Source: the human T2T-CHM13v2.0 reference genome, Homo sapiens
Direction: 5' to 3' (one strand)
Assembly (NCBI RefSeq): GCF_009914755.1
Contig: NC_060927.1
DNA: 64,000 nucleotides
Numbering within the stretch: the stretch's first letter is position 1; each line of letters opens with the position of its first letter. Of this stretch, positions 10,801-54,670 are shown one piece after another. Position numbers and translations under genes: made by a program. The notes below the pieces were generated by a model, which ran no database searches, had not been told where the DNA came from, and saw nothing but the letters and a program-made list of their open reading frames with translations.

Positions 10801-12011
10801 TGAGCTAGGGAAATACCATCTTGGTAGTCCTGAAGTGATAGCACTTACATTCTTTTGCCAGGCATCCAAAATCCTTTATTCTTCAAATAGTTGTGAAGGT
10901 TTTTTTTATTATTATATAAAGCCTTGCAGTGAGTCATAGAAGAAATGCATTGGGGTCTGAGACAGAGAGAGAGAGATGAAACAACTATAATTCCTGAGTC
11001 AACTATGATTCCTGTCTTCAAGAGTCTCATGATTAAGAAATGGAGACAAAGCAGAAATAACTAATTCCAACTTCCTAAGCTAAATGTCATAATGAACAAG
11101 GAACCAAGGAAGCACATAGAAGGCTTAGGTAAATTCTTCCTGAGGGAATTCCTCTGTTATAGGTAATAATTATTAAGCTTCCACCTTGTCTTGTTTCTAT
11201 GTCTCTATTATTATTTAATATTTACAGCTAAAGCTATCTATCTATCTATCCATCTGTCTGTCTAGAGTTCCTACCTAATGGTATGTTTCAGATTAGGATA
11301 GATTTCTCACTTGAAACAGTCTGTCTGATGTTTTGCATCCATCCATCCATTCATTCTACAAACTGTTATGCCCTCTATATGGCAAGCATTTTGCTATATC
11401 CTTACTACAGAATTCACTTAGGCACTAATACCTATTTTAATTATGGAGACAAAAACAGCTAAGAAAATGTTATCACTCCATAGATGAGTTAAAGAAAAAA
11501 AACAGGGAGAATTTCTTGAAGGTGATGTCAATATTATCATAAACTCAGGCAGTCCATGCTGAAAATGATTTTTTTGTGAGCCAGAATCCCCTGTACTCAT
11601 CATTTATTCCCTGATTTACTGCGTTTTATTCTGTATCAGATGATGTGCTAGCATAAAGCGGGGACATAACATCTTCTGATATCATGAGACATTGTTTCTA
11701 AACCTCTTTTCTTGGTGATTAGACCTATGCTTGTGCCCATCAGAGTCAAGGGTTGTGGACACTTGCTCCGCTGCTTGTTTTTTCTGCTATCTTCTGTCCT
11801 TGTTGGTTGCATTCTAATGGACCTATACCAAGTGCTGTCAGAAGATGAGAGACTACAAATCAGATTCCACAAGGATGTTCACAAATAATAAGCATTTGGT
11901 TGCAATTTAAAATTGGTTGGCAGAGCAATAGGGCATTTGATTATTAGGATTTTACATTATCTGAGTGACTTGGAAATAGAAAAGAAGGGACTTGTATTAT
12001 ATGTCCAGAAA

Positions 12012-12224
12012 AAAAGTCCAGCAAACTATAATCCATAGGCAAAATCCAGTGCACTGCTGTGTTTGTAAATAAAGTTTTATTGGAATTCAGTCACGCCCAT
12101 TTGCTTATGTGTTGTCTATGTCTGATTTCTGTCTACTTGGTGGCATTGACTAGTTTTGAGAAACCAAATGACCCACAAACTTTGCAATATTTACCGTCTC
12201 TTTATTGAAAAGGCTTGACCCTCT
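12012..12224 (+). mobile_element. MER58A-like hAT-Charlie non-autonomous DNA transposon
   Basis: GCAAACTAT...TTTGTAAATAAAGTTTTATTGGAA..CAGTCACGCCCATTTG...AATATTTAC hallmark segments; ends approximate. Confidence 0.75.
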
Positions 12225-12749
12225 ATAAAAACGAATTAATCCTGAAGGAGAAGAAAAAATAAATAGGGACCCTAATCATATTTTTAAATTTATACAGCAT
12301 GCAGTTTTGAAACACTCAGTCAATGATGTAGAACAATTAAAAAGAAAAAATAAAACCTGGGCTAAGATGATAGACAAATTCCCTTTCAACTTCAACCAGT
12401 TTGTTCTGAGGATATTGTGTGCTTCAGGAATTTCTGCCATATGCTGGGATATTCAGACATATATAACGCAGTCTGCCTTCCAGGAACCCTTAGTCTGTTA
12501 GTGGAGATGGACATAGAAAGCAGCAAATACTCCTTTGTGTAACTCATGCTGTATATGAGATAAGATAATGAGGCAGAGAAGAGTTGGAGAGTAGAGATGG
12601 CCTGGCTTTTGGGAATTTGGGGAAGATATCATAAAACAGTAGAAACTTAAACTATGTTTGAAAGCATGAACTCATGATAGACGGGCAAGGGTAGAAACAA
12701 TCGTTTTATTTCTAGAAGCTTCAACTCTATCTTGAAATAGTTTGTTGTG

Positions 12750-13094
12750 TATATTAGTCCGTTTTCACGCTGCTGATAAAGACATACCTGAGACTGGACA
12801 ATTTACAAAATAAAGAAGTTTCAATGGACTTATGGTTCCACATGGCTGGGGAGGTCTCACAGTCATGGCAGAAGGTGAAAAGCACATCTCACATGGCAAC
12901 AGACAAGAGAAGAGAGCTTGTGCAGGAAAACTCCCATTTTCAAAACCATGGGATCTCACGAGACTTATTTACTATCATGAGAACAGCACGGGAAAGGCCT
13001 GCCCCCATGATTCAGTTACCTCCCACCAAGTCCTTCCCACAACACATGGGAATTAAAGATGAGATTTGGATGGGGACACAGCCAAACCTTATCA
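12750..13094 (-). mobile_element. THE1 (B/C-like) MaLR solo LTR
   Basis: The reverse complement begins TGATAAGGTTTGGCTGTGTCCCC and ends TTTATCAGCAGCGTGAAAACGGACTAATA. Length ~345 bp; imperfect 5-bp TSD (TTGTG/GTGTG). Confidence 0.93.
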
Positions 13095-13188
13095 GTGTGT
13101 TTATAATGGCACCACAGTTTCTAAAGTATTATCCATTATCTTTTTGGTCTTTATAACAGAGGTTGGTTGTAATCATTATCTCCATTTT

Positions 13189-13992
13189 ATTAGTATTTCT
13201 TAAAAGGCTTCATCAAAGCAGTTAAATGACTTTTTCAGGGTTTCACTGCTTATAAGTGGTAAAAGTTACCTGACCCTACCTCTGACTCTAAAGCCACAGG
13301 ACTGTCCCCTTAAATCAAACTTTCTGGCCTAAGTCTACAGGTATTCCCCAGAATTTCTAATTGATATGAAATGCAAGAGAAAAGAGTCTTTGAATTTTCC
13401 TGCACTGGAGCAACCTGCCTTATTCCAGACATTGCCAAGAAATTGTTTTTGCCACTGACATTATTGCGCATGCTGCCAGTGGAAGTAATAGTGATCTGGA
13501 CTTCATATGCTTTCACCGAACATGCATATGGCTCTTCTTATTAGACTGTCATAGGGCTCCCTTACTTTCAACTTTCCTTGGAGGTTTCTCTATTTTCTGT
13601 CCTCTTTTCCTTTCCTTGTTTCTGATACCAGCCTATAGACCCTCTGTCACCAGTTGGGTTTCTTCATCACATGGTTTTCTCCTTCTCAGGTGGAGTTTTG
13701 GCCAGAGGGAGGAGAATCTGTTCAATTAAACAGATTCTGTACAACAGATTCTGTATAATGCAAAACAGAACCGATTCTGTAAAATGCAAAAAAAACCCTT
13801 TTCTCTTGCATTTCAGATCAATTCTAAATTCTGGGGAATATCTGTAGACTTAGGCCAGAAAGTTTGACTTGAGGGGACAGCCCTGTGGCTTTAGAGTCAG
13901 AAGTAGGGTCAGGTAAGTTTTACCATTTATAAGCAGTGAAACCTTGAACAAGTCATTTAACTGCCTTGATGAAGCCTTTAAGAAATAATAAT
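13189..13992. repeat. Inverted repeat: arms 13189-13384 and 13798-13992, spacer 413 bp
   Basis: Hand alignment of the left arm with the reverse complement of the right arm gives about 15 differences in ~196 bp. Example: CAAACTTTCTGGCCTAAGTCTACAG vs CTGTAGACTTAGGCCAGAAAGTTTG. Confidence 0.96.
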
Positions 13993-14374
13993 TAAACATC
14001 CCCTGGTATTTGAGAAAAGAGGTATCCCAAGTCCCACCGTTTACCAGGTCCTATTACTCACAATGCTGGTAACCATAGGTCTCCATCCCTTATGCTCACT
14101 CCTCTTACCACGCCCTGTCTAGGAGCTACTTCTACATTTATGTGCTCAGTCTTCTATCCAGAACCCTACCCCCAAATGTCTAAGCTCCTCACACCTCAGT
14201 TCTCTGTCTTGGGCCATGGAACCTCTAACACTGGTTTGGAAGTGTGTGTCTTTTTCCTCAGGCAGCTGGAGCAGAGACTGATTCCACTGCCAATTCTTGC
14301 CTCAAGAAGAGTTGTCTTGAGACAATAGGTTGAAGCTTTCACTACATGTTCTTTTAGCAAAAAATTATAAAGCA

Positions 14375-14550
14375 TAGAGGTTGAGATGGGCTCTGGAATC
14401 AGACTACAAAGATTCTGATCTTAATGCTTCAGTTATAAGCTCTGGATGTTGAGCACCTCTCCTAATCTCCCCAAGCATCATCTACTGAAAGGGGGCATCA
14501 CAGGACTTCCCTCATTGAGCTGTTGTAAGGATTAAATGAGCACATGTTAA
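14375..14550 (+). mobile_element. MIR SINE, degenerate
   Basis: GGGCTCTGGAATCAGACT...CCTCATTGAGCTGTTGTAAGGATTAAATGAG matches the MIR consensus. Confidence 0.65.
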
Positions 14551-15776
14551 GTTTCTGGCTGTGTAAGTTTTTGTTATTACTTTTCTTTTGTACTTGAACT
14601 TGTCATACCATGTTTCTATTTTGGGTTCAGAAAATATGGTTAACATAATTATAGGTGTAATAGAAATTTTGGATTAGCCTGTGAACATAACACACAATTA
14701 TAGCACTGTTTTTTTTAATGAGAGAATGAATTCCTGAGTTCTAAACAGATGAGTTACAAAGAAACTCTTGGACTGAAGTCATCCATATATAATAGATGGT
14801 CCAGTTTGGAGTAGAAGACTGACTGTGAAAGATAATTGAAAGTCTGCAAAAATATTTTTTACTAAATGCACTGTCTTTTTGAGCTTGCATTCATAGGCAC
14901 ATCTAACGCACCTGCCCCAATGTAACCAATCAACATCACATACAGCCCTCAGTTACTAAGTTTATGAGGTAAATTTATTTTCCTTCTTGGTTTTTGTTTC
15001 TTTGCATTTTGATCTTTTTATGTCTTTGTTTATTAAATAAGAAATTAGAATCTCTGATCAGTAGATTGGCTAGGATCTGCTTATGAGTCTTAGATGCAAA
15101 ACTGACAAATCTTTAATTGGTTGTGCCATCGTATCTGTCCTCAGGCTTGTTAGCTAAAGCTCAGTTAGTGATTTGCCACCACTGCCATTGCTTGGTGGTA
15201 GAATAGGGTAAAGGATTATCATGCCAGCATCCCTTGTCCGCTGTGACCTTAGTCTTAGTGAACAAATTTTCTTGTGTGCTTTCTAAAATGCCCATGACCC
15301 TTATTTCATACTTAGGAAATAGAAGTCACAAAGATTTCCTGAGGACCTCATCATTATGTGGAGCTAGGAAAAGTACTGTGGTTTATAGCTCTGTGGTTTA
15401 CACAAAGGGAAATCCAATTGATTTGCACAAATACACAAAACAAAATATATTTAAGTGCCATGAAGAGAAACGATGTTCTTTAGGAATTAAGAGGAGGTTC
15501 AGAAGGAAAATGGTGTTGATTGAATCTGGCCAACTGAGCTTGGACAATCAGTGACCTCAGGGAAAGGAGTGTTAGGAAAGAGACATTCCTGACAGAGGAA
15601 ATAACATAAGTAGACAGGGAGATAGAACATTCTGGAAATTGAATCTGTGTTAAAATGCCTTAAAAATGGTGCATCATACGAATTTAGCGACATTTCACTT
15701 CAAGATTCTTACATACCTTAGGGTGAAAATCAACAAAGACCTTAAAATGCAGACAATTAACTCTTTTTCTCTGTGT

Positions 15777-25938: not shown

Positions 25939-26730
25939 ATACATGGACCCATTGCCACAATCTTTTAATTATGTGAAACAAAAAATATTTAAATAACGTT
26001 GAGGTTATCCATATCTTCTGTATTATATTCTGTGTTACTGATTTTTTTGGATCAAATAGTGATTTTTCATGAGCTAGGTATAAAAATATTACCAGGGACT
26101 AAAATTAGGGGAAACTGGGAGTAACTTAGAGTGTAGCCAGTTGTTTTTCTACTGGTGCTACCGGCATTGAAAGCAAGAGAGTTCCTCCCTGTGTGGGGAT
26201 GGCCTGTACATGGCAGGACCTGAGTGTGCCAGGTCTCCAGCCTTTACACTTTGGTAGCATCTTCCCCACACACCCAGTGTAGTACGCCCTCTAGAGGGAT
26301 CCATTTCTTCAGTGACCACGTCTTTGGAGAGCCACTGTCTAGATTTTTAGTGCACAAAAATGGAGTGTGATTAAGGGTTTTCTGAGGATGGTGTATTGTT
26401 TTATGTTTTCTGTTGCTCCACTCAAATTCAAATTTTGCTGTTAGACTTATCATTATAATGAAATTGAATGTTGGTAAATATTTTTGTAAAGTATATGCCC
26501 CTTTTCTGTGTTGAATGGGCTACAGGCATTCAATACCCCGTAATACCCAAAATATCATTAATTTCCAGAAAATATAAAATTGTCACAAAATCTAAAAACT
26601 GGAATATTAGGAAAAAGGAAAGAATGGTTTCCATAAATCACTTTGTTTAACATAGTTTCTATGTGTTTGTCTGAGTAGTTGTTTTATTAGAAAATTGTAA
26701 TTTCCTCTCTAAACAGAGCAAACATATTCC

Positions 26731-27044
<314 letters not shown>

Positions 27045-28480
27045 AGCTAACATACTCTTTTGTTCCTAAATACAGTTTTAAAAGCACATGTCTTGAGACT
27101 AACTTGTCCTTTCCTTTGTAACATCAGTCAGTTTTGTTAAAAAAGTAAGTGAGGAACTATAAAGTTTGCATTTTAGGAAAATTTTGCATTTAGTATATAA
27201 TTTTATCTTAGCCTGTGCTTTATCTGGCAGGATCTGATCCATCCTATAATTCTACAATTAGTGTTTTAGTCAGAAATGCAGTCATTTACATTTATCCCTT
27301 TGACATTTTGCCATTCTTATTCATTTATCCAGTCATTCAATTTCAGAATACTAACTTTGCCAGATACTAATATCAAGGACTGGCCAATTCATTCATGAGT
27401 AGATGAATAACATAAGTGTCCTGACTCAAGGAGCTTGTAAACTAAGAATTGTAATGTTATAAACTATTTATATTTCTCTAGTATTTTACAAATTAACAAG
27501 CAAAATTGTGTGATTCTATTTGTAGTCAAGTGACCTCAGAAGCTATTCAGTCTTCACCATTTCCTAACTTATGACTTGATCTCATTCTAGCCAGTGACGC
27601 TCTATAGTATTATATTTATTATGTCATCCTTAACGGTGTGGAAGTTGAAGGACCAGAAAGATTCACACAGACTTGTCTTTGTTCACAGGAGTAGACCCAT
27701 GCCTCTAGATTTAAAAGGTTCATCAAGGCAGTATAACTTAGTAGAAAGAATAAGAAACTGTAAGTCTGGGGTGGGATCTGGCCTCAGTAATTCTCTGGCT
27801 GTGTAAACTTAGGTAAGATGCTTAATTTTAAACACAGTATATCCTTCTTTGGGAAATAGAATATACCTTACGGATTTCTTTATAACAATTATTTTTCAAC
27901 AGGAAAGAAGGAAAGAGAAATGCTTGCATGGAGCCATCATTTATTCAACAGTCACTCATCAAATACTTGTTGAATGCTTACTCGGTGCCAATCACTTGTC
28001 CACACACTGGAAGTCAGGAGTAAATACAATCATAAAAATTCCTGCCCTCTGGGTGCTTACATTTCTGGTTGTGTTATGCTGCAGGGAGAAAGAGGAGATT
28101 TTCAAAGGTAATAGTACCTAATACCATCTGAAATCCTAAAATTTCTGCCTTACTGTCTTCCACCTACCATCCCCATTGGGGAAACCTTACCTTAGAGGAG
28201 GCCACTATATAGTGGATATATAATAGTGTTTGTATTTTATATCTTTTATCACTGTTTTCTGCACACAGTAAAACAGTGATAAAAGTTATCACTTTCTTAA
28301 GATTTTGAGGTTGCTGTACATTCTCATTTGTGAACAAAAACTTTGCTCTGATTACGTAGGATTCATTTAAAATCCATGGAATCTTTTGACACTGAAGTTA
28401 GAAGTTCATTTTATCAACAAGTGAAATAGTCTCAGGCACAAGGTGGAAGGATGTGAGTCCTAAAATCTTCGGTAGGAGTT

Positions 28481-28935
<455 letters not shown>

Positions 28936-33475: not shown

Positions 33476-36400
33476 CTCACGTTTATAATCTTTCTTGATA
33501 CTAAGGCAGTTTGTTTCCCAAATGCTATTTATGGTGAGCTTTTTGTCTTCAAATGTTTGTTATAAGACTCTTTTTTTTTTTTAATCATCCAGTGCAGAAG
33601 TTCATGAAAGAAAGTGAAAGTGCACCCATACCCCCATTCATTTTCCAGAGCTTACCCTGTTTGGTACATTATCTTGTTGGCTCATGTTTTGCTTGGTTTT
33701 GTTTATGCAACTTTTTCTTATTAATTTGTTGTTGTCGTTGGATGGAGTTAGGGAGGGTTAAAGGACTGGAGTAAAAATGCTATTTATCTTTACCCCTTCT
33801 TCACTTACAGTGTGTGTACGTTGATGGAGGGGGTGGTGGGGATAGAGGGTGATTTTACCTGCTCCATTTTTGTTTCTATTTGCTGCTACCAGCTTGCTTC
33901 TTAACCCTGGGCAGAGGCTGCCCTGCAGGCAGGAGCAGAATAAGCTGTCTGTGCCCTTCCTCTTCCTATACCTTTGAAGATTGGTGCCTTTCACTGTTTT
34001 CCAATCGCTTGTTCTTTCCATAAGCTCGTTCCCTTCTCTCCACTGCTTTGACAACACCTTTTAGAGTTGCTCCTGGAGCTGCTGCCAAGACAATAGTATG
34101 TTTTCTCTTTTAAAGGTCTAAACCCTGGGAGGAGAGGAACTGGAGGAATTGAGTCAATATAATATACGAATCACTTTATATTTTACTATCTATAATTTAG
34201 TTTTTGACTTCCATTTCTAAGGAAAAAATTGTTTTCTTTTATTGTTTTTTTTTTTTCTGTTTCCATTCAGCACTCGTGTACTGAGAATCCCCAAGCTATA
34301 TTAAGTCCCATTTGGGCCATTAATGTGTGTGCAACATGGTCTGTCTGTTCCAGTAGAGAAAAAGGCATATAAATAACTTTCTTATCACTGGTTATATGCT
34401 TTGAAGGAGTACAAATTAAACAACCTGTGGAAGTTCAAGTAAAAGAAAGCTTATTTCCAGTCACGAGAAGTTAAATGTGAGCTGGGCAGATTCATAATAG
34501 AGAAGTACCGTTTTTTTGTTTGTTTGTTTGTTTTTAACTCTGAGGGCCCTGTGAGCTTGGTCAATTTACATCATCTCATGAATGACATAGGGCCCTATAT
34601 GTGGAAACAAATAAACAACAACAACAACAAACCACTGTAGAGTCATATCAAAGAAAAATGAAGGTGGTATTCATCCACATCAATATTAAGATAAATTATT
34701 AAATATTTATAAAACTCTTTGACAGTGTACAGCCTCTATAATTAATCAATGTAGCACTTTCTCAATACTTCCCCATTTTAATTAGTACCAACATCAATCA
34801 TAATTAGGCTCATGCTTTGGTCTCTCTGAGACTTTTAAAACATCATGGGTAGGGGGCATTTTTCAGGATTCAGGTATCAGCTAAGAGTTCATTTAGCCAG
34901 TAGATCGTGACCATTCTTCCTCTCCCTGAAGCTATGATTCTGGATACTGTGGCTCTTCCTGCTCCTCCAGACATAGAGAAAATGGACAAGTTTCTCCTTC
35001 CCCATTTTGAGTGCATGAAGTGAAAACTTAGCTTGTCCAGCCAAACTGGAGGAAGGAGAGGCGGGACTTATTGGAGTAACTGAAAAGAGAAAAATTGGAA
35101 TATGAGCAGTACCAATACTCAGTCTCTTAAGGAAGGGTAGAGTCCCTTTCTTTCTCTCTCTGTAATTTTTTTCTTTTTTGTTTTTTTTTTTTCAAAGAAG
35201 ATTGCATAAGATTCTGTCTCTCTAGGAGATGACTGATGAAATATACCCCCTGGGTCATTTGCATCTTACTCCTTTGTAGTGTAGGGAAGAACATTCCAAA
35301 CCCATTATAAGCACTTACTGTTGTTGGGCATGTCATAACAAACACAATACCTTTCTGGAATATACTGCTGAGCCCTTGGCTTTTTGCTGAATTTGCCTAA
35401 AAGCCCTTCTGCCTATTGAGTGGCCACATTCTGAACTAGTTATACTTGGTTAAGTTTTCACACAGTACACTCTGGGATACTAGGGTTGCAACAATTTAAA
35501 AAAGAACATAGATGGAAGCTTTATATCTCAAAAGCTCCTACCTTTGACTTCCCTGACAATTTTTCCTTCTCCTGCTCTTCAACTCTATGTTTCCCAACTT
35601 TGTTTTTGTAAACACGAAAAGTAAATTTTTTACCATTTTGTGCCTAATTCCTCTTCTTTCTCTCTTCTCTTTTTACTCATCACAGGAATGTCTTAGCTTT
35701 CCTTCCTTCTCCAATCTGCCTTGGGTATAGAGTCACGCCTTTAAATCTTTTAGCATACCACAATGTAACTTACATAAGGAAATGTTTAATTTGGGAACCT
35801 CAGTTGGTTTTGTTAACACTGCTGCACCGAAGCTCTAGCTGAATTCACATAATCTCATGATTTTAGTAAAGGTAACAAAGGAAAACTATTATGTAAGTAC
35901 CTACTTTTCAACAAACATTGGGCTGGGTTTCTTCTTTACATTTTCTCATTTAATCTTCATAATAACCCTGCTAGATAAGGTTTACCATCTCATTTTGCAA
36001 TGTGGAATCTGGAGCCCAGAGATATTAAATACCTTGTACGAGAGTAGGTGTGCAAAGCTAAACTTTGAACCTAGGCATCTCTGACTTCAAAGTCTATGCT
36101 TTTTCCACCTCATAGAAAGACCATCCAGAAGATCAAGTGTTGGAACCTTCCGAGGCTGTGACATATTTATTACTTCAAAGTTTATTATCACAGGACATGC
36201 ATGCTGCTTTAGCAACTAGAAGTGTGTGAATGAATATTACTATTGTGTTGCATAAGTCCTTGGCAATATTACTTTTTAGGTGCCATTCTAATCCTGCCCT
36301 GTTTGGAATAATTGTGATTACGAGGGCATAGGAGTAATTCAGAAATTTTTTGAAGAAATTTCTCCACACAGCATTAGCCTTAGTTATGAGTATAATACAA

Positions 36401-43174: not shown

Positions 43175-43297
43175 TGACAAATCCAAATTCTATGAGTACA
43201 GGGAGTTTGTTGTGTTCACTGCTGTATCCCCAGCACCTTGAACAGCACCTTTCAAGGAGGAAGAACCTAATTCATGTTTGTTAGAAGAATGAATGAC
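43175..43297 (+). mobile_element. L2 3' end fragment
   Basis: TGTTCACTGCTGTATCCCCAGCACCT...TTTGTTAGAAGAATGAATGA. Confidence 0.65.
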
Positions 43298-46264
43298 AAT
43301 ATTGTCTTATTTGATCTTCACCATAATCCCGTGAAGTGAATACCGTATTCATACTGTATCCTCGTTTTTTTGCAGATGGCAAAACTGAGGCCTTGAGACC
43401 TGCTCAGGTTTGCATAGCTAGTTTTTGGCCATGGCAAGATTTGAATTCAGGTTTTTCTATTTCCTTATTCTCTCCTTTTTGTCTTCTGGGAATTTGCTAT
43501 ATTAATAGCAAAGCAAGAAATGTCACACAAAGAAAAATTGTTTCCAATTTTAAATTCATGATGCATATGCAAGAAATTACTGACTTTTCAATCCAATGGT
43601 AACACAGATTGTGTGATTTTTAGGAGGAAGAGCCTTTCTTTTCCATCTCTTGCGTTTATTAGCATATGTGTCAGTGCACACACATCTACACCGTGCAGCT
43701 CTCACCTTGTACTTTTCCAGTCTGAATTCGTTTTGTAGGCTGTCCCTGCCCTGACTATCCCAGGTGCCTATCAGGGCTGTGTCTTGGTCAGGCTAAGGCC
43801 AAGCAACAGGCACCAGCATTTGTTATGGTTACCTTGGCAAGTGAATGGGGTTTGAGGGAAGCTGGAGAGCAGGCATTTCAGGAGTAGAACTAGGCCAGTC
43901 TGTTTTTGTAAAAAGTTGATATTCACCCTAATTGTAGCTCATGTTGGCAAGCGGAGTAAACACCCATGCAAATTACTAAGTTGTACTGAATGTCCAAGGA
44001 TGTCAATAATCATCTTGAAATCCAAATAAATATATTTTTTACTGAAACGGAAGCCAGGCACCACATGCAGTTTCTCTCTGTCACTGGAGACAGATTTGGC
44101 ACATATGCATGAGACAGAGAAGGGCAACTCTTCAGGCCCTAATGCACACAGGAAACTAGGGATGTGTATATCATACTTGGCAGCAAAATAGAGGTGGGGC
44201 AGCCATCACTTTCTGTTCTCAAGCACCTCTCTTTTTTCCTATATTTTAAAACAGGATGACCACAAAGAAGAATAAGGTATACAGTAGCATAGGATCCTAA
44301 ATTAAAGCATGAGGGAAAGCTAGCATTAGTTTTTCATCTAAAGTCCATTTGGGTAGGAATGAGTCAGTGCAAAACTGTACAAAGGTGATCTTAAGTCACA
44401 TGTTATGTTACCGACTCTGTGGCAATGGCTGTGAGTAGTCCAGGAACTCTCCAAGGCCTATTTTTAAATTCACTTAGACCAAGCATAATGAGGTAAAGGG
44501 ATGTCTATACACATTCTCAAGTTTAGTTCTCTGACCGTGAGTCAGACTGTGGGCCATGGACCTGGGCGTCTCAGTGGTAGCAGGACTCATTTTTTCCCCT
44601 TTTCTTTCTCATAAATGACTTAGGAGACACATTGGAGAACCCTATGTGCTCCTTTTACTGGAATTATCTTTTAAGGAAGTACTGATTTCACCTCCTGTAC
44701 ATGGTTTGCTGAGATGGCCTATTGGGGTTTCCCACCAGTCCACAACTGGAAGTTTCTATTTGCACATTTTGACTGCTAGTTCTATATTTAGTCAAAAGCC
44801 TGCCTTTTGCCTGGTTTCTTAGGGAAATAGTCTGTAGGAGTTGCTGTGTCCATTTGCCTTGTTCACTTGGGTATTTATTTGACTGTATACCCTGATTATT
44901 TCCTAAATTAACAAAAAGGCACAGGGCCCCAAATGAAGGAAGACCCCTTGTAATTTGTTAAAAAATAAGTTTATGAAAATGTGTCGTCAGGAAATCAGAG
45001 TTGTGTTGCGGGGTGGGGAGCATGATATACATTTGTGTTTGTATGTTTCTAATTGTCTACAGATTTATGGCCTACTGTAACAAAGCCATTGTAAGTGTAC
45101 AGTGGGAGGGTCAAGAAACCTTATTCTATGGATTCAAACACATTATGCATACAATTTACACGTAGGCACAAAAATATCCCTTCAAAGACCCTCCAATAAG
45201 CTATGGTATAGTTGAGGAAACACTAGACTTGAAGTCGGGAAACCGGAGTGTTGTCATTTTAATCTCAGGCTATATCTTTACATGAACAAGAGAACTTTGT
45301 GTTATTTTTCATATTCGAACTCTTTGTGCTGAAGATTCTGCAGTCAAACTGCAAGACACATACGCATTGGCTGATCAGAAATGACATAACCATTCTTACT
45401 GCACTGAGTTGATATTCAGTCAATAAACAGTCTAATCTCGGTTAAATGTTTGCATATTTTTAGACTTTTAAAAATTTGAAATCAGCCTCTCAAGTTCCAT
45501 TAGACAGTTTTATCACGGACACATCAAGTTCCATGTACAACAGGCTGAGAACCATTAAGCTACAAAATTTCTAAAATTTTCTCCAGGTTCTCAGTTGCTA
45601 AATTCTCTCTTGAACATTTTTGGGGATAAAAAACTGGCAGAGAAAAAGAAGAAAGTACACCTTTTTACATTATGAAACACCTATGTTCACCTTATCCATG
45701 GAGTTATGCCAGTGACCTAATGCCTATTAAGTTCTTCCATGTTCCAAAGGTCTTTCTGTACTTGAAAACTCATAGGTGAGTCAGGTCCTTCACTGATAGC
45801 TTATAGCTAAAAACCACTTGGGAGAGGGGCTGTCCAGGTCTTATGTCAAAACTTTGTCCCATACGCTGTTAGTGTTAGAAATGGAGCCGTCAGCAAATAG
45901 AATCTGTTGTTTCATTTAATTACTTTTCAATATGCCATTACCAGAAATTTTTATGTAAATACATATTTTATTCCCTGAGGCTTGTCAATCTGAGACCAAA
46001 ATTATACAACACTGAAAAAAAAAAAAACAAAATTTTCTTTTTACTAGTTCTCTCCCTGTGTTACTGTGTCATCTCTCATGCATGGTATAGGATGATGATG
46101 GTGCTCAAACTTAGCCAAAGACTCTTTTGTTGGTATTCAATTGGCAGAATTAATGAAACAAATATTTTAAGATCCCTGAATATGTGCTAAAAGCATATAA
46201 CTACACTACTGGCTAGTCAGTAATTGGTGCCTCAGAAGAGTTAGGTATTTATTCATTTACCAAA

Positions 46265-46445
46265 TACTTATATGTCAAGCACTGTTCCATGTGTTTTCTT
46301 AACCCATGTCATTGTTAAAACAACCCTTTGAAATGTGGGTACTGTGATTATTTCCATTTTGCATTGAGGAAGCTGAGGCACAGAGAAAGTAAGGAACCTG
46401 CCCAAGGTCATACTATCAATTGTAGTGGTGCAAGACAGTGGGCTC
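46265..46445 (-). mobile_element. MIR SINE
   Basis: CCATTTTGCATTGAGGAAGCTGAGGCACAGAGAAAGTAAGGAACCTGCCCAAGGTCATA. Confidence 0.75.
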
Positions 46446-49293: not shown

Positions 49294-50767
49294 TGAAACA
49301 CAATTCTTACCTTAACTGCCCCAGGCACCACGGCAGAAGAACCATGACCTTGCTGAGAGGCACTGCATGCCAAATGAGACTTAGTTTTTCCAAAGTACTT
49401 GGGAGAAGAAAAACAATAATCTATATGATGGGCTTTTGGCCTAAACCCATATCCTTTAGATGACGGAATTTGGCATAGCTCATATTCTGGTTTAAAGAAA
49501 AATGTTTTGTTATGATGTCATTTGCCTAATTAATAGCAAAAGAGGATTGAATTTTCCCTATGCAATGTCATCTAGCCTTTGAGATTTTAGAGTTAATGAC
49601 TCAAATCAATTGTCCTGTCTTCTGTGAAACCTTCCTGATGCCTTCAGTTGGATAAATCTACCCTTGGTGTTCATAAGGCATTATATTGATGCCTCTGATG
49701 TTATGCAGATATATCCCTTCTTGGCTTTGTTTGCCCATTCAATGAACATTTGTTGAACACCACCTATATGCCAAGATAGTTGGAAGATGGAAGTGTGGTA
49801 CACAGAGGATGTGGAAGGGAATCACAGAAGATGAGACTATGAAGGCAGGCCCTTCAAGGACTTTCTAAGTAGTACTCAGGAGTTTGACAAAGAGGAGCTA
49901 GAAGAGGTTTGTGAAGTCAGATGAGTAATATAATTAGGTTTGTATTTTATGAAGGGCAACATCTAAATATGGCTTGTCTATTCAGCAAGCACTTATTAAG
50001 TGCCTTTTGCATGGTAGACAACATGCTTGATGCTGAAGATACAAGAAAAAATTTAAAATGGTCCTTGCCCTCAAGGAGCTCACAGTCTATTGAGTTACCT
50101 TTCTGACTTTCCCACTAGATTGTGAGCTCCTGGAGGGCAGGCACTTTCGTTCATCTGAAAAAGAGCTTAAATTTCAGTGTTAATCCTAGATTACAATCCC
50201 GCCTCTATTATTTTAACTTTGTTCACATCTGTTAACTGCTCTGAAAATCAGAGCTAATACTGCCTACCTCATCAGGGAAAGATTAAACGAGAAAAGAATG
50301 AGATGTGATTGACACAGCAGGAGCTCTGTGTATGCTATTTCCTCCTCTATCTCTGTGCCTGGTACATGGTAAACATTCAGGACACTTCTGCTGCCTGCTT
50401 GGCTGGAGAGCCTGTCTATGCAGCCTCAGTGTTGGGAGGATTTGAGCCTGGGGTCGGCCTGGCACCCAGCTATGGTAGTTAGCAAATCTATCCTCAGCTC
50501 AGTCAGTGATCAAATCACTGGCTCTAGGCTGTAAACTAACAGGGCCAGAATTGGGTTCTGGACTCTGAAGCCCAGGCATGCATATTGCAAAAGTCAGAAT
50601 CGAAGTCATAGGAAAATGATGAAATTTCCTTTCTGGCCAGAATGCTATTATTTCACCAAGGGCAACAAATCTTCTTGGCAGGAAAAGTTGACTTGCTTGT
50701 GCTTTGTGTAATCAATTGTATTTGCAAGTGATGGAGTCCTTCTCACAGTGGCTTAGAGGAGGTGTTA

Positions 50768-54449: not shown

Positions 54450-54670
54450 TTTAGTGATTAGAACTTGGGAAGCAATTTCTAGAACCAGAATGGTCGGGTA
54501 CAAATCCTAGCTCCTTCTCATATCAGCTCTGAGAACTTGGGCAGGTAATTTAACTTCATGATGTCTCAATTTCCTAATCTGTACAGTGGGGCAGCCAGAG
54601 TACTTATTTCATTGTATTATTTGAGAAGTGGGAGGACATAGTGCATAGTGATTCTATAAATATTACTATT
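54450..54670 (+). mobile_element. MIR SINE, degenerate
   Basis: GGGTACAAATCCTAGCTC...CTTGGGCAGGTAATTTAAC...TCAATTTCCTAATCTGTACAGTGGGG. Confidence 0.7.

What the first reader, a model, noticed from the sequence alone, without database searches (positions are those of the whole stretch)
13189..13992. Closely spaced ~195-bp inverted duplication made of a MIR relic plus unique sequence
Seen: the arms (13189-13384 and 13798-13992) differ at about 15 of 196 positions by hand count (~92% identity) and enclose a 413-bp spacer. The outer ~110 bp of each arm is MIR-like; I do not recognise the inner ~85 bp as a repeat. Known: independent MIR copies are far more diverged than this, so these are not two separate insertions. 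Seen: MIR similarity continues outward only from the left arm (ATTATCTCCATTTT at ~13175). Inference: the right arm is a local inverted copy, or the arms were homogenised by gene conversion. Such a structure can mediate recurrent micro-inversion of the spacer. If transcribed, it would form a long non-Alu dsRNA stem that ADAR could edit.
Basis: partly seen in the sequence, partly recalled or inferred. Interest (0 to 1): 0.8.

Follow-up and report, generated by a model that had tools for sequence, protein, structure and literature searches.

The report
Old inverted duplication in LPP intron
A 206-base piece of an LPP intron, made of part of an ancient MIR repeat plus unique DNA, was copied once in reverse about 400 bases away, probably tens of millions of years ago, and it looks like an ordinary neutral relic that could fold into double-stranded RNA.

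Summary
The arms are 13185-13391 and 13791-13996. They show 189 matches, 17 mismatches and 1 indel (91.7% identity), with a 399-nt spacer.

Each arm holds the 5' part of a heavily decayed MIR SINE plus about 76 nt of non-MIR sequence. At the sensitivity available, the arm occurs only twice in the T2T genome, namely the two arms themselves. There is no target-site duplication. MIR homology continues outward only from the left arm, so the right arm is the copy.

The arms share 32 departures from a MIR profile and differ at 6 columns. The duplication therefore came long after the MIR insertion. From JC 0.087±0.022 I infer an age of roughly 30-45 Myr.

Mismatches are evenly scattered and the longest perfect run is 26 nt. 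This gives no sign of recent gene conversion and makes the arms a poor substrate for recurrent inversion.

As LPP pre-mRNA, the arms are predicted to form 190 base pairs. ADAR editing is plausible but I could not test it.

Best reading: a one-off local inverted duplication, by template switching or staggered-break inversion, that is now inert. This is a new member of a known kind and of low interest.

The parts
13108..13315 (-). Decayed MIR SINE, the ancestral copy. Its 5' end points inward (about 13315) and its 3' part runs outward past the arm boundary at 13185.
   Evidence: A profile built from 30 independent genomic MIR copies matches 13301-13214 on the minus strand (model 15-113, E 2.1e-3 in the 64-kb window). 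The outward continuation 13189-13108 aligns to model 134-220, and 1 of 2000 shuffles reach its score. The 5' end at about 13315 is extrapolated from model position 15.
13185..13391 (+). Left arm, the source copy of the inverted duplication: MIR part (13185 to about 13315) plus about 76 nt of non-MIR sequence (about 13316-13391).
   Evidence: Searches give the alignment. Searches show only two places in the genome. One search shows it is contiguous with the rest of the MIR on its outer side.
13392..13790 (.). 399-nt spacer, single copy in the genome. Its right end holds a small hairpin and short tandem repeats.
   Evidence: One search finds only a self match at E<=10. One search finds a 14-nt unit x1.9 at 13729-13755 and a 26-nt unit x2.0 at 13743-13795.
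13791..13996 (-). Right arm, the derived inverted copy of 13185-13391. Its MIR part is truncated at the outer breakpoint 13996|13997.
   Evidence: One search gives 91.7% identity. One search places the MIR profile at 13882-13968 on the plus strand (model 16-113, E 4e-4). One search finds no MIR similarity beyond 13996 (513 of 2000 shuffles reach the score).

Best explanation
This is a one-off, locus-specific inverted duplication inside an LPP intron. A 206-nt segment was copied in reverse-complement orientation about 400 nt downstream. The segment comprised the 5' two-thirds of an already decayed MIR SINE plus about 76 nt of the unique DNA next to it.

The most likely mechanism is a replication or repair error that copies a nearby stretch from the wrong strand. 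In the four-point template-switch model this would be a '3-2-1-4' event with points at roughly 1=13790, 2=13391, 3=13185, 4=13997. The alternative is its '3-1-2-4' variant, equivalent to a staggered-break inversion, which would also have inverted the spacer.

Arm divergence puts the event tens of millions of years ago in the primate lineage. Since then both arms have decayed independently and neutrally.

The structure has no demonstrated function. Because it lies on the sense strand of an LPP intron, the pre-mRNA should fold into an imperfect stem of about 190 bp with a 399-nt loop. This is a plausible nuclear ADAR substrate that is removed with the intron.

Shown: the structure, its uniqueness in the genome, its MIR content, which arm is the copy, and the predicted fold. 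Inferred: the mechanism, the date, neutrality and editing.
For: Structure: arms 13185-13391 / 13791-13996, with 189 matches, 17 mismatches and 1 indel.

Local and unique:
- The arm query finds 2 of 2 first-look candidates in the 3.1-Gb assembly, itself and its partner.
- A 32-nt stretch of the non-MIR part, allowing up to 3 mismatches, occurs at exactly these 2 places, with 0 hits for the reversed control.
- The spacer and the right flank are single copy.
- As a positive control, the neighbouring masked repeat 12748-13097 returns 10,083 candidates, of which 40 were scored at 86-88% identity.

Not a transposon: there is no perfect flank repeat of 4 nt or more. The best 8-mer match is 5/8, which 1409 of 2000 random position pairs reach. 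MIR homology crosses the left 'terminus'.

Late duplication of an old MIR: over 84 shared profile columns the arms agree at 78. At 32 of those both depart from the profile consensus, and there are 11 shared gap columns. The arms differ at 6 columns, with left=consensus at 2 and right=consensus at 4.

Age: JC distance is 0.087±0.022 with no CpG sites. This gives 29-44 Myr at 1.0-1.5e-9 per site per year (the rates are recalled).

No conversion tracts: the longest perfect run is 26 nt against a mean of 36 under uniform scatter.

RNA fold: MFE is -414.7 kcal/mol against -216.6±8.2 for 20 shuffles, z = -24. There are 190 inter-arm pairs, the longest uninterrupted helix is 42 bp, and the duplex energy is -307.6 kcal/mol.

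Literature (passages read):
- Template-switch event types that create an inverted repeat, with or without spacer inversion (PMC5453318).
- Intronic dsRNAs are removed by splicing and are non-immunogenic (PMC12695637).
- 96% of predicted genic dsRNAs are intronic (PMC11838218).
Against: - No orthologous sequence could be examined. The ancestral state, the date and the absence of concerted evolution are therefore inferred from one genome.
- The copied fragment (206 nt) is longer than the largest 2->3 fragment in the great-ape gold-standard survey of template switches (median 12, maximum 128; PMC7954356). Calling it a 'short-range template switch' stretches that category. A break-and-repair inversion with staggered nicks fits equally well.
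- The genome DNA search is blind to copies as diverged as MIRs are from one another. It found none of the other MIRs. A very old low-copy family ancestral to the non-MIR part cannot be excluded, though that would not change the local-duplication reading.
- The MIR profile was home-made from 30 copies chosen with a recalled motif, and its E-values for the arms are modest (4e-4 and 2e-3).
- Neutrality is assumed, not tested.
Confidence: 0.78

Rival explanations
1. The duplication is much older, close to the age of the MIR, and the arms have been kept about 92% alike by intermittent gene conversion (concerted evolution). On this view arm divergence understates the age.
For: Inverted repeats 400 nt apart can in principle convert one another. 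A single genome cannot separate 'young duplication' from 'old duplication plus conversion'. The 32 shared departures from the MIR profile would arise under either history.
Against: The mismatches are evenly scattered with no long identical tract: the longest perfect run is 26 nt against 36 expected, P(>=26)=0.90. Both arms hold private derived states, 4 and 2. Perfect-identity runs of 26 nt or less are poor substrates for homologous recombination in mammals (recalled knowledge, not tested).
Confidence: 0.1
2. The 812-bp unit 13185-13996 is a non-autonomous DNA transposon (a MITE-like element), and the arms are its terminal inverted repeats.
For: The geometry fits such an element: arms of about 200 nt around a 399-nt core, about 0.8 kb in all.
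Against: - Only 2 arm copies exist in the genome, namely the two arms, and the core is single copy. A family whose inverted repeats differ by only 8% should leave many copies at comparable identity, which the tool does detect for another family.
- There is no target-site duplication.
- MIR homology runs across the left 'terminus' into the flank.
- The arm is itself MIR plus flank.
Confidence: 0.02
3. The stem is a functional RNA element of the LPP primary transcript. It might be an ADAR-dependent regulator of splicing or of pri-miR-28 processing, or a precursor of small RNAs. On this view it is retained by selection and is not a relic.
For: The predicted stem is very stable: 190 pairs, longest helix 42 bp, z = -24. 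It lies on the sense strand of an intron of an annotated gene, 36 kb upstream of mir-28 (hub annotation). About 92% of arm positions are paired (190 of 206-207), above the 84.67% median reported for edited repetitive dsRNAs (PMC11838218).
Against: There is no Rfam family at E<=1. The mismatch pattern gives no sign of pairing being preserved: only 4 of the 190 inter-arm pairs are G-U, and 10 of the 17 arm differences are transitions. I saw no functional annotation and no expression, editing or conservation data. A search for 'LPP' + 'miR-28' + 'inverted repeat' found 0 papers. Millions of such intronic dsRNAs are predicted and most are unedited.
Confidence: 0.07
4. Two independent MIR insertions happen to lie in opposite orientation.
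For: MIRs are abundant. The home-made profile finds 25 matches at E<=1 in this window.
Against: The homology extends about 76 nt beyond the MIR 5' end into sequence that exists nowhere else in the genome. The arms are 93% identical where independent MIR pairs reach at most 62% (325 pairs). There are 32 shared departures from the consensus.
Confidence: 0.01

Closest known systems
Template-switch mutations of the four-point model (Löytynoja & Goldman 2017, PMC5453318; Walker et al. 2021, PMC7954356)
   Same: A nearby stretch is copied in reverse complement into the same locus. This creates a new inverted repeat that can fold as an RNA hairpin. Event types '3-2-1-4' (repeat only) and '3-1-2-4' (repeat plus inverted spacer) both produce exactly this layout.
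   Different: Scale is the difference. Reported great-ape events have a median copied fragment of 12 nt and a maximum of 128 nt. Here the fragment is 206 nt, copied across about 400 nt. The ancestral state needed to call an event formally is not available.
Inversions with inverted duplications at the breakpoints from staggered breaks (described for Drosophila inversions; recalled, no paper read)
   Same: The layout is source segment, then inverted spacer, then inverted copy. The copy abuts DNA that formerly followed the spacer. No repeat family and no target-site duplication are involved.
   Different: It requires the spacer to be inverted relative to outgroups, which I could not check. The size here (0.6 kb inverted) is far below classical cases.
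Inverted Alu pairs (IRAlus) as intronic dsRNA and ADAR substrates
   Same: Two inverted, about 90% complementary segments a few hundred nt apart in an intron, predicted to fold into a long imperfect duplex. Intronic location implies removal by splicing and no access to cytosolic sensors (PMC12695637).
   Different: The arms are not two members of a dispersed family. They are a local duplicate of MIR plus unique DNA, so the RNA has a single possible partner in cis. Editing is not shown here.
Inverted repeats that mediate recurrent human inversions by NAHR (PMC6748972)
   Same: Inverted repeats at more than 90% identity flank a segment.
   Different: The inverted repeats known to mediate inversions are 654 bp to 24.2 kb. 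Here the arms are 206 nt with a longest perfect run of 26 nt.
MITE-type DNA transposons with long terminal inverted repeats
   Same: The overall geometry is the same: inverted arms around a short core.
   Different: There is no family and no target-site duplication. The arm continues into an older SINE outside the 'element'.

Membership tests
MIR SINE (outer part of each arm) | Sequence homology to the MIR family, collinear with the family consensus | tested here: met
   The profile came from 30 genomic copies picked by a recalled 24-nt core motif (418 genomic hits against 0 for the reversed control). The right arm matches model 16-113 at E 4e-4 and the left arm matches model 15-113 at E 2.1e-3, in opposite strands. 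The left side continues to model 220. No curated Dfam or Repbase model was available, so the subfamily is not assigned.
MIR SINE (outer part of each arm) | Independent insertion of each copy, so no homology beyond the element ends | tested here: not met
   Arm homology runs about 76 nt past the MIR 5' end into genome-unique DNA. The right-hand MIR piece is therefore a copy of the left one, not a separate insertion.
DNA transposon / MITE with terminal inverted repeats | Multiple dispersed copies of the arms and core | tested here: not met
   The arm is found at 2 places, which are the two arms. The core is found at 1 place. The control family is detected with 10,083 candidates. Caveat: the search is blind to copies below roughly 85% identity.
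DNA transposon / MITE with terminal inverted repeats | Target-site duplication flanking the element | tested here: not met
   There is no perfect direct flank repeat of 4 nt or more with boundaries shifted by up to ±4. The best 8-mer match is 5/8, reached by 1409 of 2000 random position pairs.
Template-switch mutation (four-point model) | The new sequence is the reverse complement of a stretch nearby in the same locus | tested here: met
   13791-13996 is the reverse complement of 13185-13391, 399 nt away. The source side is identified by MIR continuity.
Template-switch mutation (four-point model) | The ancestral or outgroup sequence lacks the copy, and one switch-and-return event explains the difference | not testable with these tools
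   No primate or mammalian orthologues are held. The own-genome search states that it has no relatives.
Template-switch mutation (four-point model) | Short copied fragment, as in the published surveys | tested here: not met
   206 nt here, against a median of 12 and a maximum of 128 in the gold-standard great-ape set (PMC7954356). This is a limit of the surveys and not of the mechanism.
NAHR-competent inverted repeats (recurrent inversion) | Inverted repeats long and identical enough for homologous recombination | tested here: not met
   The arms are 206 nt at 91.7% identity with a longest perfect run of 26 nt. Known cases use 654 bp to 24.2 kb.
NAHR-competent inverted repeats (recurrent inversion) | The spacer is found in both orientations among haplotypes | not testable with these tools
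   Only one assembly is held.
ADAR-edited intramolecular dsRNA | Both arms lie in one transcript and form a duplex of at least about 25 bp | tested here: met
   Both arms lie in an LPP intron on the sense strand (hub annotation). The prediction gives 190 inter-arm pairs with a longest helix of 42 bp. This is a prediction only.
ADAR-edited intramolecular dsRNA | Clustered A-to-G mismatches in RNA-seq on both arms | not testable with these tools
   No RNA-seq or site database is held. The large site lists of PMC4365171 cannot be read here. PMC3662811 and PMC3676881 are not held.
Segmental duplication (recalled standard definition: at least 1 kb and at least 90% identity) | Length of at least 1 kb | tested here: not met
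   The arms are 206-207 nt.

The most novel reading that the evidence does not exclude
The structure may be the fossil of an unusually large single template-switch event. The reverse-complement fragment is 206 nt, more than 1.5 times the largest in the great-ape gold-standard set. In one step it would have created, from non-Alu DNA, a primate-specific intronic dsRNA of about 190 bp in LPP. That RNA would now be edited by nuclear ADAR and might affect processing of the long intron that also hosts mir-28.
Probability: 0.12. Interest if true: 0.4.

Novelty: new member of a known kind. Interest (0 to 1): 0.2.

Why it matters
It matters little by itself. It is a clean example of a small, old, locus-specific inverted duplication that repeat masking does not flag. 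If orthologues confirm the history, it would show that switch-and-return copying, or staggered-break inversion, can create a dsRNA-forming hairpin of about 200 bp de novo from mostly non-repetitive DNA. That is larger than the events catalogued so far. As a non-Alu duplex with a single cis partner, it could also serve as a simple natural test substrate for intronic ADAR editing. I found no evidence that it affects LPP or mir-28.

Tried and rejected
- **Single-sequence searches for other MIRs.** The whole-genome DNA search with the left MIR and single-sequence nhmmer against the window found no other MIR copy. These searches are too insensitive for MIR-level divergence. I therefore built a profile from genomic copies.
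- **Contaminated profile.** The first iterated profile picked up another abundant repeat from the 3-kb flanks (model positions 1-105). I discarded it for the clean 267-position profile.
- **Templated junction.** I tested whether the spacer's right end (13767-13795) is a direct-orientation copy of the arm's inner end.
  - Against the left arm, 122 of 1000 shuffles and 278 of 5000 shuffles reached the score.
  - Against the right arm's inner end, 31 of 5000 did.
  - This was a post-hoc, marginal result in low-complexity A-rich sequence, and I did not use it.
- **Retroposition of a transcript.** Rejected, because there is no tail beyond the homology and no flank repeat.
- **Rfam.** Nothing at E<=1 in 12000-15500. 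Only mir-28 is found in the whole window.
- **Editing-site evidence.** The large lists of PMC4365171 are unreadable here. Two Nature Methods papers are not held. 'LPP' does not occur in the main text of PMC12695637 or PMC13251931.
- **Print search.** A search for the locus ('LPP', 'miR-28', 'inverted repeat') found 0 papers. They may list this duplex among its 5 million predictions.

Full report
**Observation.** The inverted repeat is real.
- The repeat finder reports arms 13186-13391 and 13791-13996: 206 nt, 89% complementary without gaps, 399 nt between them.
- A gapped local alignment gives 13185-13391 against the reverse complement of 13791-13996. It has 189 matches, 17 mismatches (10 transitions, 7 transversions) and one single-base gap, which is 91.7% identity.
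- In a search of the whole 3.1-Gb assembly the partner arm scores E 1.3e-75.
- In the 64-kb window this is the only inverted pair of 100 nt or more within 3 kb. The two other overlapping pairs lie in the masked repeats at 26725-27047 and 28477-28781.

**What the arms are made of.** No curated repeat library was available, so I built a MIR profile.
- A recalled 24-nt MIR core motif occurs 418 times in the genome, against 0 for its reversed control.
- I aligned thirty of those places, trimmed to about 280 nt, into a 267-position profile.
- In the window the profile finds 25 matches at E<=1. They include the right arm (13882-13968, plus strand, model 16-113, E 4e-4) and the left arm (13301-13214, minus strand, model 15-113, E 2.1e-3).
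- Both arms therefore hold the 5' part of a MIR in opposite orientation. Extrapolating to model position 1 puts the MIR 5' end at about 13315 in the left arm, so the inner 76 nt or so of each arm is not MIR.
- A 32-nt stretch of that inner part, allowing 3 mismatches, occurs only at the two arms in the whole genome, with 0 for the control.
- Outward from the left arm, MIR homology continues to about 13108 (model 134-220). One of 2000 shuffles reach that score, and 31 of 2000 do when only the bases strictly outside the arm are used.
- Beyond the right arm nothing MIR-like is found: 513 of 2000 shuffles reach the score.
- The left arm therefore sits in the ancestral MIR, the right arm is the copy, and 13996|13997 is a rearrangement breakpoint.

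**Local duplication or repeat family.**
- The arm query has exactly two first-look candidates in the genome, the two arms. The spacer and the right flank are single copy at E<=10.
- The tool does see real families. The adjacent masked repeat 12748-13097 gives 10,083 candidates, with the 40 scored ones at 86-88% identity.
- It does not see copies as diverged as MIRs. It found no other MIR with the left MIR as query. Very old families are therefore not excluded.
- However, a family whose terminal repeats differ by only 8% would have left many detectable copies.
- There is no target-site duplication. No perfect flank repeat of 4 nt or more exists, and the best 8-mer match of 5/8 is reached by 1409 of 2000 random position pairs.

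**Timing and conversion.**
- Over the 84 profile columns where both arms have a base, they agree at 78. At 32 of these both differ from the profile consensus, and 11 further columns are gapped in both arms.
- The arms differ at only 6 columns, where the left arm keeps the consensus state at 2 and the right at 4.
- Independent MIR copies aligned through the same profile are at most 62% identical (325 pairs, median 40%), whereas the arms are 93% identical. The profile alignment probably understates true identities, but the contrast is large.
- The MIR was therefore already heavily decayed when it was duplicated, and both arms have changed since.
- The Jukes-Cantor distance is 0.087±0.022 and there are no CpG sites in either arm. 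At recalled primate neutral rates of 1.0-1.5e-9 per site per year this gives 29-44 Myr, with about ±25% sampling error.
- The mismatches are evenly scattered. The longest perfect run is 26 nt where 36 would be expected on average (P(>=26)=0.90). I see no tract that would mark recent gene conversion. Old conversion cannot be excluded from one genome.

**Mechanism (inferred).** Two published event types of the four-point template-switch model produce exactly this layout (PMC5453318, passages read).
- '3-2-1-4' creates an inverted repeat.
- Mapped here, the points would be about 1=13790, 2=13391, 3=13185 and 4=13997 for the first type.
- The second type gives the same product as an inversion with a staggered break across the 206-nt segment.
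- Only an outgroup sequence can tell these apart, through the orientation of the spacer.
- The copied fragment is larger than those catalogued in great apes (median 12 nt, maximum 128; PMC7954356).

**Consequences.**
- DNA level: the NAHR inversions genotyped in humans use inverted repeats of 654 bp to 24.2 kb at more than 90% identity (PMC6748972). Arms of 206 nt with no perfect run above 26 nt are far outside that range, so recurrent micro-inversion is unlikely.
- RNA level: the plus strand is the sense strand of an LPP intron (hub annotation). Folding 13150-14030 as RNA gives -414.7 kcal/mol, against -216.6±8.2 for 20 shuffles (z = -24).
- The fold has 190 pairs between the arms (119 A-U, 67 G-C, 4 G-U). 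The longest uninterrupted helix is 42 bp and the arm-arm duplex energy is -307.6 kcal/mol.
- This is in the range of duplexes that are edited. The median for edited repetitive dsRNAs is 84.67% paired, and 96% of predicted genic dsRNAs are intronic (PMC11838218).
- Such intronic duplexes are removed by splicing and are considered non-immunogenic (PMC12695637).
- I could examine no editing or expression data. Rfam has no match at E<=1 in 12000-15500, while mir-28 at 50064-50141 is recovered as a positive control.

**Verdict.** Gene conversion and recurrent inversion are not supported by the sequence. ADAR editing is plausible but untested. This is an individual instance of a known kind of event with no evidence of function. 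A search for the locus in print ('LPP', 'miR-28', 'inverted repeat') found 0 papers. The dsRNAscan catalogue of 5 million predicted duplexes may well contain it, but I did not open its supplements. Interest is 0.2.

Noticed in passing
window 12748-13097: A high-copy interspersed repeat lies directly left of the MIR. The genome search gave 10,083 first-look candidates, and the 40 scored ones are 86-88% identical over nearly the full 350 nt. From memory it looks like a MaLR-type (THE1/MST-like) solo LTR, but no library was available to name it.
   Followed up: partly
window 13714-13795: The right end of the spacer is structurally odd. It has a short perfect hairpin around 13714-13737 (seen by eye), a 14-nt unit x1.9 at 13729-13755 and a 26-nt unit x2.0 at 13743-13795. 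The last about 29 nt weakly resemble the arm's inner end in direct orientation, forming a spacer-less mini-palindrome with the right arm (31 of 5000 shuffles, tested post hoc). It might be a footprint of the junction-forming event, or it might be chance in A-rich sequence.
   Followed up: partly
window 14389-14552: Another MIR-like fragment lies on the plus strand about 400 nt right of the structure. It scores E 9.8e-7 with the flank-contaminated profile and E 5.5e-3 for 14491-14546 with the clean profile. It is unrelated to the arms.
   Followed up: no
window 26779-27048 and 28477-28744: An inverted pair of about 300-nt masked repeats, 82-84% complementary, lies about 1.4-1.7 kb apart. The sizes and the Alu-like profile hits suggest an inverted Alu pair, the usual kind of intronic dsRNA former.
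   Followed up: no
window 50064-50141: The mir-28 precursor is recovered by Rfam (RF00655, 100.1 bits, E 1.7e-19) and is the only Rfam family above gathering score in the window. It lies 36 kb downstream of the duplication in the same LPP intron.
   Followed up: no
window 46246-46418, 54470-54640, 35882-36100, 43222-43456: These are the best-preserved MIR copies in the window by the home-made profile (E 7e-16 to 4.5e-6). All are far better matches to the profile than the MIR inside the arms, which shows how decayed the duplicated MIR is.
   Followed up: no
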